Below are positions 15,817 to 25,070 of a stretch of DNA of 64,000 bases, one piece after another. The DNA is from Octopus vulgaris (taxonomy: Eukaryota): assembly GCA_951406725.2 (NCBI GenBank), contig OX597819.1, positions 122,574,001 to 122,638,000 of the forward strand, given 5' to 3'. Position 1 is the stretch's first letter. The number at the start of each line of letters is the position of its first letter. The notes below the pieces were generated by a model. It saw nothing but the letters and a program-made list of their open reading frames with translations. It did not search any database and was not told the DNA's origin. A program made the position numbers and the translations under genes.

Positions 15817-16758
15817 TATATTGAGACCGAGGAGTGAAAAGAACATTGGTGGAACTAAATAATGAGAAAGTGCTACGAAATTTAAACACCACCGGTCAGA
15901 TACTGCTGTGTGAAACCTCAAGAAAAATATGTTCTGATGTGGAAATCAACTATTACCTGGATACCAACGTTTTCCGAAAAATACTGGAGACAAAGGGCAT
16001 TTATGGGACTCTGAAAAGAGGTTTGCAATCCAAGTTCCGGCGATACGCTTTCAGATTCATACATATTATTTTTGAACGAACAGGATATGTACCTTCACGT
16101 CTGGAGCAAAACAAACCTGAACTAAGGATTTCAAAACCGTTACGTCGTAACGAAACGTGATGCCATTAGATATTAAGAGGATTACTTATAGAATTATTTA
16201 TTTTCAAAGGAGGTGAAAAATCATCTGAGATTCATTCATCATAAAGATAATCCAAAGCTAGATGAGAAGATGTGCAGTTGGTCCCTTAGAGCTGGTTCAA
16301 GAATAGATACGACATACATACAGACACATTGAAGTGGCACACACACACACACAGAGGAAGTATAGTATAAAATATGGCCATCACAGTATGCTATACTTAC
16401 ATAATGAAGAAGGTTACGAAGCGAATGTAATCATACGGAAGTCATATTTTCACCTCTCACACCTGTAGGCAGTGTGTTATACATACACACAAACACACAC
16501 ACACGTATTCTTCTTCTTCTTCTTCTTCTTCTTCTTCTTCTTCTCCTCTTCCTCCTCCTCCTCCTCCTCCTTCTTCTTCTTCTTCTTATTATTATTATTA
16601 TTATTATATTATTATTATTAATATTATTATTATTATTATTATTATTATTATTATATTATTATTATTATCATTATTATTATTATTATCATTATCATTATCA
16701 TTATCATTATTATTATTATTATTATTATTATTATTATTATTATTATTATTATTATTAT

Positions 16759-17291
16759 TCAATAGTTTTATTTTTATCACGTGCTTTCACTGCACTACTG
16801 AGCACAGCCCTATGTGTCTTGGGTATGTGCTGTGTTTTTTTTGAGATTTTATTATTTTCACTGTATTGAAAGTGTTCTACGTAGTATATGTACGGTGCAT
16901 AGTAGTGCAATTTTTGTATGTTATATACACTTGTAGGTTCTGGTGTTTTGGTTAGGTATTTGCCTAAATGGTTTCTTTTTTATCATACCTAATGCGCCTA
17001 TAATTATAGGAATTGTTTCTGCTATAAGGCTCAACATTCGAGTTAACTCTATTTCCATATCTTTTTATTTCGATAGTTCCCCCGTTTCTGTTAGGGAAAC
17101 GTTGTCATCTGTTGATATTGATACACTGATCAGGAGGCTACTTTTTTCTTGTTGATCTCTGATAACTATATCCGGTCTATTAGCTTTCTCTATCTGTGGG
17201 TATTGATATAACTCAGAGTATGGCTGCTTTCTCATTTTCTGTGAGATTTTCTGGGGTGTACCTACACCACCTTTTTCCTGCTGTCATTCCT
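16759..17291 (-). mobile_element. 5'-truncated R4/Dong-like LINE, diverged family-A-like
   Basis: Homologous to 983-1510 (RPDIVIRDQQEK, IPIIIGALGMIKK); flanked by (TTA)n. Confidence 0.8.
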
Positions 17292-17357
17292 ATTATTATT
17301 ATCATCATCATTATTATTATTATTATTATTATTATTATTATTATTATTATTATTATT

Positions 17358-17748
17358 ACTTTTTTTTTTCTTCTTTCAAATTTGCTTCCATTTCTTGCCG
17401 AGTGTCTTCCCGACTCCTAGGGCAAAGAAACTCATAGTATACATTGGTAGGCCATTAAACCAAACTCAATAGTTCGTTCATTTAAAAAAACATTAAAAAA
17501 TTTTTTTTTTAAGTTAAATTAAAATACATGAGCAGCAACAGTTCTCACATCGACAATGCTCTTCTCAATACGTGTGATGTACCAGTTAAGACAATCTTTT
17601 GCACTTCTTGCAGGGATGGTAAGCCAGGGATCATTCTCATATAATTTTCGGTTCCCTTCTTGATCATTCCTAGTGCTCCTACGATCACTGGTATTGTAAC
17701 CGCCTTGAGATGCCACATTTTCTCAATTTCAATGAGTAGGTCTTTATA
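17358..17748 (-). mobile_element. 5'-truncated R4/Dong-like LINE, family B
   Basis: [50 protein letters not shown]. Confidence 0.88.
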
Positions 17749-23100: not shown

Positions 23101-24370
23101 AGGTTTTTCAAATATTCAATGTCAGATCTAAATATTTTAATTTGTTGTTGCAGACGCTCTTGCCAAGAAGGCTTTTTGTGGGACTGTTGCCGTTTTCTAA
23201 TCTTTACACCACATAGGATCGTTGAGATTTTCGCGGATGCATAGTATAGGTGGTTGAGGTTTGTGATATCAACATCATTAACTGAAATTATATCCTTAAG
23301 TGCAAGCCGGATTTTACCAATTATTTTCATGTTTTGGTTAGAGTTGCGGATTTTAGGAAGTGTATCACGCTCATCCATGCTGGTTTCTTTAATTTTCAGC
23401 CATTCAATCATGATTTGATTTTTTAGCTCATGTAGTTCTGTTGGGTCAATATTTGTGTGACTTTCTTTATCTATTTGATGCTCATCTGTCTTAGTGTTTA
23501 TGATTGGTTCAGGGCGTATTTCACTTTGCCTATCACTTATACTAACTCTTTCAATCCTCTCTTCGTTTTTATCCGCCCTGGGCTGGTCTATAATCATTTC
23601 CTCTGTATTATCTTCTCTAGCTGCAGCTTCGTTCATTTTATCCGATATTGCTTGTCTAACCTGATCAATCTCTACTTCAGTCAGTAATTTCTTTTTTATA
23701 ATGTTTCTTCTAACATTGGCAAGCTTGTTACTGTCTATGTAGGGTCTTACTTCAGGGTGTTTCTGTCTCCAGTTTAAGTATGCTTGTACAGTGCTAGACT
23801 TATCTGTGGGGAAATATATGGCATGGTAGAAGGCCTCAAGAACTTCTTTATTATCTTCCCTAGACCATTTTTCCTTCTTTTTCTTTTGATTATTTGGTGA
23901 TGAGCATGGATGGCCATCTGTTGGAATATTCCGGTTGTGGGGTTCGTCCAGCTCCTGTGTGTTGGGAAGATTTGATCCAGTAACTGATTTTTCAATCAGG
24001 ATTTGGTTCAATTTTCGGGTACGTGGTCTTTTGTAATCCGCGCAATGACCAATGCGGTTTATTGTTTGATTTGTTGACCTTGAAGCATGACGAGCATCCA
24101 TTCTTATATTAGGAGATGGATCTGTCAGTTTAGGGTTCACTACGTGTAAGCATTGCTCATAGCGCCGCTTCTTAAGACTAGCAGATCTATATTCGTCTGT
24201 ATTTTTTTGTTGATAGTTTTATCTCCGGACATTTTTTTTTTCTTTTTTTTTTTTTTTTTTTTTTTCTCCTTTCCTCCTCTTCCTTTCTTCAAGGCTTACT
24301 GTGTCTGTATTAGTTCGAAATAATGAGAATAAAATACGGAGAAAGGGAAAAAGACGGGATCTGTCAGTTA
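20191..24370 (-). mobile_element. Near full-length R4/Dong-clade non-LTR retrotransposon, family E
   Basis: ~230-bp 5'UTR, single RT-RLE ORF and ~225-bp 3'UTR between two long (TTA)n arrays, matching the known Dong target. Confidence 0.93.
20416..24140 (-). CDS. RT + CCHC + RLE polyprotein, split by one 1-nt frameshift at ~20804-20807
   Basis: KSPGKD, NYRPITCL, WIDYKKAFDS, GIFQGDSLSPLLF, YMDD (21963-21974), YKYLG, CRVC..HVVSKC, RHD; the RLE motif [20 protein letters not shown] lies in the 20416..20823 frame. The start codon is uncertain (GTG). Confidence 0.9.
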
Positions 24371-24445
24371 TTATTGTTATTACTATCATCTTCACCACCA
24401 TCACCATCATTATTATCACCATCATTATTATTATCTTCAATATTT

Positions 24446-25070
24446 TTATATTATTATTATTATTATTATTATTATTATTATTATTATTATTATTATTATT
24501 ATTATTATTATCATAATTATTATTATTATTATTATTATTATTATTATTATTATTATTATTATTATTATTATTATTATTATTATTATTATTATTATAATTA
24601 TTATTATTATTATTATTATTATTATAATTATTATTATCATTATTATTATTATTATCATTATTATTATTATTATTATTATTATTATTATTATTATTATTGT
24701 TATTATTATTATTATTATTATTATCATAATTATTATTATTATCATAATTATTATTATTATTATTATTATTATTATTATTATTATTATTATATTATTATTA
24801 TTATTATAATTATTATTATTATTATAATAATTATTATTATTATTATAATTATTATTATTATTATTATTATTATTTATTATTATTATTATTATTATTATTA
24901 TTATTATTATTATTATTATTATTATTATTATTATTATTATTATTATTATTATTATTATCATAATTATTATTATTATCATAATTATTATTATTATTATTAT
25001 TATTATTATTATAATTATTATTATTATTATTATTATTATTATTATTGTTGTTGTTGTTGTTGTTGTTGTT
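24446..25070. repeat. (TTA)n array ending in (TTG)n at the 5' flank of the full-length element
   Basis: Directly visible. Confidence 0.95.

What the first reader, a model, noticed from the sequence alone, without database searches (positions are those of the whole stretch)
16508..25070. Same-strand train of five different R4/Dong retrotransposon families in one (TAA)n tract
Seen: five distinct RLE-LINE 3' ends (16759, 17358, 17885, 19250, 20191) all lie on the minus strand, each separated only by (TTA)n. Their C-terminal peptides and 3'UTRs differ. A smaller D-A-B train lies at 497-2043, and the one plus-strand copy (41958) sits in a plus-strand (TAA)n, so polarity is kept in every copy I found. 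Established: Bombyx Dong (R4 clade) targets (TAA)n. Inference: several co-existing families share one strand-specific microsatellite target, and each insertion leaves target on both sides, creating a self-renewing landing pad.
Basis: partly seen in the sequence, partly recalled or inferred. Interest (0 to 1): 0.75.

Follow-up and report, generated by a model that had tools for sequence, protein, structure and literature searches.

The report
Dong retrotransposons stacked in TAA repeat
Five related jumping-gene families of very different ages sit head-to-tail in one long TAA repeat, most likely because each family targets that repeat on one strand, a behaviour already reported for this group, so the pile-up is largely ordinary.

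Summary
Confirmed. Five RLE-type LINE copies lie on the minus strand at 16759-24440, separated only by (TAA)n-type repeat. A-D are short 3' ends; E is nearly full length. They are distinct families (47-77% aa identity; four deep lineages) and of different ages (85-100% identical to their best other copy).

Genome-wide, TAA follows 134 of 142 3' ends. It precedes 62 of 72 truncated 5' junctions of families B-E (14 of 29 for old family A), against 0.6% background. Polarity holds at 42 of 43 junctions in a random 1.2 Mb. Copies also split a TAA tract inside an unrelated SINE, so TAA is a target, not only a tail.

TAA targeting by Dong in molluscs and dozens of Dong-R4 families in an octopus are already in print. 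Cluster sizes fit insertion in proportion to tract length: this 498-unit tract predicts about 7 insertions, so the train is unremarkable. Net creation of TAA is suggested (5' runs longer than 3') but not shown.

Not found in my literature searches: a 556-nt non-coding passenger with the same target polarity, and a shared 3'-UTR stem-loop. The scan noted a similar array in another genome.

The parts
16586..16758 (-). (TAA)n tract, 50 units, 3' of element A; continues into (GAA)n/(GAG)n to 16508
16759..17290 (-). Element A: old, decayed 532-nt 3' end (RLE tail plus 3' UTR)
   Evidence: best other copy 85%; same diverged sequence at single-copy depth in contigs of runs X1 and X3
17291..17358 (-). 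(TAA)n tract, 19 units
17359..17748 (-). Element B: 390-nt 3' end
   Evidence: best other copy 97%
17749..17876 (-). (TAA)n tract, 38 units
17877..19175 (-). Element C: 1.3-kb 3' part with an open 378-aa frame (linker, CCHC knuckle, RLE); youngest family
   Evidence: (100% hits)
19176..19250 (-). (TAA)n tract, 24 units
19251..19531 (-). Element D: 280-nt 3' end; older sister family of B
   Evidence: (best other 94%)
19532..20190 (-). (TAA)n tract, 189 units
20191..24440 (-). Element E: near full length. Single ORF (about 24101 to 20419) with N-terminal three-helix domain, RT, CCHC knuckle and RLE; one homopolymer frameshift near 20802; 5' UTR truncated
24445..25070 (-). (TAA)n tract, 178 units, 5' of E; ends in (CAA)n
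495..2046 (-). Second train D-A-B with TAA spacers (duplicated at 3926-5471)
41957..42218 (+). D copy in a plus-strand TAA, directly upstream of the body of SINE-H
53851..54510 (-). Older A copy, TAA on both sides, followed by a full-length S element (53152-53685)
30350..30825 (+). 5'-truncated S element (non-coding passenger) inside the internal (AAT)n of a SINE-H copy

Best explanation
The region is a train of five distinct restriction-like-endonuclease LINE families, likely of the R4/Dong clade, that most likely inserted one at a time over a long period into one long (TAA)n tract, each facing the same way because its endonuclease would nick only the TTA strand. Shown: family distinctness, different ages, TAA at both junctions, fixed polarity, and insertion into TAA tracts that belong to another element. 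Inferred from R2 biochemistry: the N-terminal Myb-like domain and the RLE recognise the tract and nick the (TTA)n strand, and that 3' end primes reverse transcription on the element's (TAA)-ending RNA, which is probably gripped by a 3'-UTR stem-loop. Incomplete synthesis leaves 5'-truncated copies joined back to TAA. Each event splits the tract into two usable targets, so long tracts collect mixed-family trains at a rate roughly proportional to their TAA content.
For: 3' flank TAA in 134 of 142 loci; 5' junction TAA in 62 of 72 for B-E and 14 of 29 for old A (8 of 150 loci dropped as self or duplicate, 41 ran off the locus). 28 of 30 near-full-length E 5' junctions have TAA (the other two have it slightly further up). 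Background 0.6%. Polarity 42 of 43 junctions in 120 random 10-kb pieces. SINE-H head-(AAT)n-body is found empty (L255, L245, L308) and filled by D (L149) or S (L305, window 30245-30843). 44 of 47 adjacent pairs are of different families. Ages along the train are not monotonic. Cluster sizes 89/22/6/1/1 against 89.9/21.0/5.5/1.7/0.6 predicted by a length-proportional model. RT Pfam E 8.6e-28; the C-terminal model matches R2 structures, E 1.8e-10, TM 0.69.
Against: Only 14 of 29 old A copies keep TAA at the 5' junction. Some misses are later deletions, SINE insertions or reference ends, but not all are explained. 8 of 313 junctions in the loci face the other way. The length-proportional fit uses present-day lengths, which include any TAA added by insertions, so it is partly circular. 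The length of the single tract piece does not predict a following insertion (p 0.35), while having an element upstream does (p 0.003). No labelled Dong or R4 protein was available for the tree. No biochemical test.
Confidence: 0.88

Rival explanations
1. Strong self-renewal (an add-on to the main model): each insertion adds new TAA, by a long target duplication or by slippage at the 5' junction, so occupied tracts grow and attract more insertions.
For: The pure TAA run at the 5' junction is longer than at the 3' end in B-E (median 15.5 vs 8.5 units; 46 vs 26 of 72; p 0.0014). Filled SINE-H sites carry 10-38 units on the head side alone (8 sites) against a median of 8 for 11 empty ones. Tandem re-copying of 20-30-nt pieces is common at 5' junctions. 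A tract behind an element is followed by another element in 44 of 126 cases against 19 of 108 (p 0.003).
Against: The asymmetry vanishes when old A is included (101 pairs, p 0.29). Solitary insertions total 30.5 units, no more than the length-weighted median of empty tracts (37). A need for upstream DNA, as in R2Bm (-34 to -22; PMC10499050), would give the same asymmetry. For Dong alone the neighbour excess is not significant (23 of 126 vs 13 of 108, p 0.21). The 35% lies inside the length-proportional simulation (15-42%).
Confidence: 0.3
2. TAA is only an element-borne tail; there is no targeting, and copies meet by microhomology or chance.
For: Nearly every 3' end carries TAA, and a few copies have non-TAA 5' junctions.
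Against: TAA precedes variable 5' truncation points in 62 of 72 young copies against 0.6% expected, and copies split the internal tract of SINE-H.
Confidence: 0.03
3. The train was copied as a unit from read-through transcripts or by template switching in one event.
For: Same orientation; no HDV-type 5' ribozyme was found that would trim read-through RNA.
Against: Members differ from their families by 0-15% in non-monotonic order. 44 of 47 neighbour pairs are mixed-family, with unrelated truncation points.
Confidence: 0.03
4. Clustering mostly reflects a permissive region (low selection, open chromatin) on top of TAA targeting.
For: The window holds about 9 non-redundant copies in 64 kb against about 22 per 1.2 Mb; upstream status matters independently of piece length.
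Against: Tract length alone reproduces the cluster distribution.
Confidence: 0.15

Closest known systems
Dong of Bombyx mori, DongAg (Anopheles), DongBg (Biomphalaria), Darwinula Dong1/2 (R4 clade)
   Same: Single ORF with RT and C-terminal RLE, no N-terminal zinc finger, Myb-like N-terminal domain, (TAA)n target. The target is reported for 'most insects, mollusks and cnidarians' (PMC7998251 section 3.3 read; PMC3812793 passages).
   Different: Bombyx Dong has an HDV-like 5' ribozyme (PMC3774820 passages); none was found here (no positive control). Mixed-family trains and a non-coding passenger were not found in the papers searched.
Dong-R4 families of Octopus vulgaris and O. bimaculoides
   Same: 51 Dong-R4 families covering 92.7 Mb, 5 of them recently active (PMC13282606 passages and supplementary table row). 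Here Dong covers about 2.1% of a random 1.2 Mb.
   Different: Those papers do not mention the TAA target (0 hits for TAA in the main texts). Sequence identity with their families was not tested.
R2 retrotransposon (R2Bm, R2Tg)
   Same: Best PDB matches by sequence and fold; model for strand-specific nicking and upstream binding (PMC10499050 passages).
   Different: R2 targets 28S rDNA and has N-terminal zinc fingers.
Tandem insertions of target-specific LINEs (Utopia in U2 genes)
   Same: A site-specific RLE element occasionally inserted in tandem (PMC4640811 passages).
   Different: Gene target rather than microsatellite; same-family tandems.

Membership tests
R4/Dong clade non-LTR retrotransposon | Single long ORF with a non-LTR RT | tested here: met
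   Pfam RVT_1 E 8.6e-28; uninterrupted 1259-aa frame for family C in L183
R4/Dong clade non-LTR retrotransposon | C-terminal CCHC knuckle and PD-(D/E)xK restriction-like endonuclease | tested here: met
   C191, H203, C208, P276-D277 and K308 invariant in 67 sequences; model matches R2, TM 0.69
R4/Dong clade non-LTR retrotransposon | No N-terminal zinc finger | tested here: met
   None in the N-termini of E, C and B (Pfam)
R4/Dong clade non-LTR retrotransposon | Divergent N-terminal Myb/SANT domain | tested here: inconclusive
   Confident three-helix model with an invariant Trp. Myb, SANT and trihelix hits only at Z 4.5-6.6 (R2 Myb 4.8, rmsd 3.6, 69 aligned); Foldseek gave nothing significant
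R4/Dong clade non-LTR retrotransposon | RT phylogeny groups with Dong, R4 and Rex6 | tested here: inconclusive
   No labelled reference retrieved. The quick tree shows only the relation to unnamed and insect RLE proteins at about 33-46% identity
Dong (TAA-specific lineage) | Inserted in (TAA)n with TAA on both sides, fixed orientation | tested here: met
Dong (TAA-specific lineage) | HDV-like ribozyme at the 5' end | tested here: inconclusive
   No Rfam match for the E 5' end; no hit with my own pattern on the E, C, A and S 5' ends, without a positive control; B and D 5' ends not recovered
Dong (TAA-specific lineage) | Sequence-specific nicking and TPRT at TAA | not testable with these tools
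   needs biochemistry
SINE (element S) | Fixed 3' end, 5' truncations, no ORF | tested here: met
   16 of 19 random-sample hits reach the 3' end, with starts spread from 1 to 520; stops in all frames
SINE (element S) | Pol III RNA-derived head | tested here: inconclusive
   No Rfam hit and no tRNA by ARAGORN; degenerate heads also escape these (Hhead and M did)
SINE (element S) | 3' end shared with a partner LINE | tested here: inconclusive
   No BLASTN match to A-E; only a loosely similar hairpin by eye

The most novel reading that the evidence does not exclude
A dozen or more Dong lineages plus a 556-nt non-coding passenger (S) form one guild that shares a strand-specific TAA target and a conserved 3'-UTR stem-loop, and that writes new TAA at every 5' junction. 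This would make the guild a net generator of the genome's AAT microsatellites, and S a TAA-targeted non-autonomous partner of Dong not found in the papers searched.
Probability: 0.3. Interest if true: 0.55.

Novelty: new member of a known kind. Interest (0 to 1): 0.3.

Why it matters
It links two facts published separately: Dong targets TAA, and octopus carries dozens of Dong-R4 families. The link explains mixed trains, much of the long AAT microsatellite, and why repeat annotations fragment there. Young, intact families C and E with a simple repeat target are tractable for asking how a Myb plus RLE protein reads a microsatellite strand. Divergent families on one target give a natural comparison of which residues and RNA elements are constrained. 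It does not change current models of retrotransposition.

Tried and rejected
Empty-allele test: laying four public runs on 16200-19525 gave no contig or read spanning any TAA spacer, so the pre-insertion tract length is unknown. No RNA holder was listed for the flank, so there is no statement on expression.

HDV ribozyme and other RNA families: nothing for the window's E 5' region, the full-length E 5' end or S. Automatic alignment folding of the 3' stem-loop gave no structure because of misregistered rows; anchoring by hand was used instead, and only C and E fold well above shuffles (z -2.7, -3.1).

Labelled Dong and R4 proteins were not among the listed hits of three searches. The careful tree did not finish, so only the quick tree is used. 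A homogeneous Poisson model of insertion under-predicts neighbours (5-26% against 35%) and was rejected. A first asymmetry test conditioned on 5' TAA was biased and was redone unconditioned.

Literature: searches returned 0 papers; those showed no paper on mixed Dong trains or a Dong passenger. Xiong and Eickbush 1993 and Biedler 2015 are not held. Kojima and Fujiwara 2004 was seen only as a citation. Repbase and Dfam entries could not be seen and may already describe S and these families.

Full report
Observation. The window lies in a 2.8-Gb genome of 227 contigs. It is probably an octopus; this is inferred from size, from repeat types that I recall, and from the scan's notes, and I did not try to identify the record. 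Between 16586 and 25070 five LINE pieces lie on the minus strand: A 16759-17290, B 17359-17748, C 17877-19175, D 19251-19531 and E 20191-about 24440. The spacers are TAA-type repeat only, 498 units in all. The D-A-B train is duplicated across an N gap (98.2%).

What the elements are. E encodes an RT (Pfam E 8.6e-28) whose best solved relatives are R2 proteins. A model of C's C-terminal 378 aa (pLDDT 94) matches R2 structures at E 1.8e-10, TM 0.69, and CCHC and PD...K residues are invariant. The N-terminus has no zinc finger and folds into a three-helix domain with only middling similarity to Myb/SANT domains. This is the R4/Dong layout described in PMC7998251 (section read). A tree with labelled references could not be made. 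The window's E has one homopolymer frameshift that 24 of 26 E loci lack, and family C has an uninterrupted 1259-aa frame elsewhere.

Distinct families. Family representatives are 47-62% identical in protein, except B-D at 76.5%. In a quick tree A, E, C and B+D are four separate lineages among unnamed relatives. Best non-self identities are A 85%, D 94%, B 97%, and C and E 100%, so the train was built over a long time and not in positional order. The diverged A copy is present at single-copy depth in contigs of two public runs from different studies (one could be the source of the assembly), so its divergence is real. At least six more, older RLE families with TAA-tailed 3' ends turned up in the flanks.

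Target, not just tail. I took the 30 best loci per family and dropped 8 as self or duplicate. TAA follows 134 of 142 3' ends. At 5' junctions that fell inside the locus, TAA precedes 20 of 22 (B), 10 of 12 (C), 23 of 27 (D), 9 of 11 (E) and 14 of 29 (old A). It also precedes 28 of 30 near-full-length E copies. The background is 0.6%. These loci are biased toward close copies, so I also drew 120 random 10-kb pieces: 42 of 43 Dong-TAA junctions have the same polarity. An unrelated repeat (SINE-H: tRNA-like head, internal (AAT)n, body) occurs empty and also split by D or by S, with TAA on both sides. This shows use of pre-existing tracts.

Is the train special? Adjacent pairs are mixed-family in 44 of 47 cases, as expected for independent insertions. 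In the random sample, 119 TAA clusters hold 0, 1, 2, 3 and 4 insertions (Dong or S) in 89, 22, 6, 1 and 1 cases. Insertion proportional to TAA units predicts 89.9, 21.0, 5.5, 1.7 and 0.6. At that rate the window's tract expects about 7, and P(5 or more) is 0.83. Tracts behind an element are followed by another element more often than other tracts (44 of 126 vs 19 of 108, p 0.003; Dong only 23 of 126 vs 13 of 108, p 0.21). This exceeds a homogeneous model but lies within the length-proportional one. The fit uses present lengths and cannot tell cause from effect.

Self-renewal. The weak form (target remains on both sides) is shown. The strong form (new TAA is made) is open. 5' pure runs exceed 3' runs in B-E (15.5 vs 8.5 units, p 0.0014) but not when A is included (p 0.29). 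Filled SINE-H sites look longer than empty ones, on small numbers. Short tandem re-copying at 5' junctions is frequent. Against it, totals around solitary insertions (30.5 units) do not exceed the length-weighted empty median (37), and an R2-like need for upstream DNA (PMC10499050 passages) would give the same skew. Public short-read data could not span the spacers.

Extras. (1) S is a 556-nt non-coding element with a fixed 3' end and 5' truncations. TAA follows 59 of 66 3' ends and precedes 38 of 62 5' ends, and its polarity matches Dong's in 20 of 20 random-sample junctions. With 16 3' ends in 1.2 Mb against 22 Dong 3' ends, it is nearly as common. Mobilisation by Dong is inferred; no shared 3' sequence was found. 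(2) All five 3' UTRs carry, 42-50 nt from the end, a CC/T-W-AG motif followed by a 3-5-bp stem with a different sequence in each family (anchored by hand; fold significant only for C and E). (3) No HDV-like ribozyme was found at the E, C or A 5' ends, unlike Bombyx Dong (PMC3774820 passages); the test lacked a positive control.

Comparison and verdict. TAA targeting is reported for Dong, DongAg and DongBg (PMC3812793 passages) and for 'most insects, mollusks and cnidarians'. 51 Dong-R4 families, 5 of them recently active, are reported for Octopus vulgaris (PMC13282606 passages and one supplementary row); PMC8967140 and PMC9115989 (passages) list Dong in octopus without a target. My nine paper searches found no description of mixed-family trains or of S, but Repbase, Dfam and the original papers were not visible. 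The scan noted a similar Dong array in another genome (unreviewed, not used as support). The finding is real and correctly read, but it is the expected outcome of a known targeting rule in a genome with many families: a new member of a known kind, interest 0.3.

Noticed in passing
window 30350-30825 (+), 53152-53685 (-), 7584-7896 (-); full copy L004:1955-2510: Element S, 556 nt, non-coding, flanked by TAA with Dong's polarity, 5'-truncated like a retroposon; likely a non-autonomous passenger of Dong.
   Followed up: partly
window 37309-37563 (-); L203:1399-1779: A different RLE family (about 30-40% aa to A-E). The window copy has (CATA)n on both sides and abuts the 2-kb (TATG)n array at 34950-37091; possibly a second microsatellite-targeting lineage.
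   Followed up: partly
window 260-3580 and 3683-7025: A 3.3-kb block repeated at 98.2% on both sides of a 100-N gap; probably an uncollapsed haplotype or a tandem duplication.
   Followed up: partly
window 30105-30994 and 41738-42415; L255, L245, L308: SINE-H: tRNA-like head, internal (AAT)n, and a body with a hammerhead-like core (recognised by eye from recall); often in inverted pairs. Its internal tract serves as a Dong and S landing site.
   Followed up: partly
random sample and loci; 24 copies in the window: A very abundant tRNA-like SINE (M) abuts the same tracts in the opposite polarity (22 of 24 junctions in the random sample), with an (ATT)n tail.
   Followed up: partly
L152-L180, L187, L241, L318: Tandem re-copies (2-6 times) of the first 20-30 nt at 5' junctions of E, C and A, suggesting repeated template jumps when second-strand joining starts.
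   Followed up: no
L189 (family B 5' region) and window 24370-24440 / L152-L180 (family E 5' UTR): B and E share a roughly 130-nt 5'-UTR segment with GAT/GGT repeats although their proteins are only 53% identical; possibly exchange between families.
   Followed up: no
L165 and L182 5' ends: The full-length E 5' end folds into a compact three-way junction; C begins with the same few bases as the Bombyx Dong primer in PMC3774820. Function untested.
   Followed up: partly
flanks of L017, L045, L049, L051, L052, L055, L064, L080, L137, L165, L206, L207, L279: Six or more additional old RLE families ending in TAA with the same polarity.
   Followed up: partly
window 7894-8138 (-) and 38776-39132 (+): A decayed RLE fragment joined directly to a truncated S copy; and a CR1-like C-terminal fragment (label from recall).
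   Followed up: no
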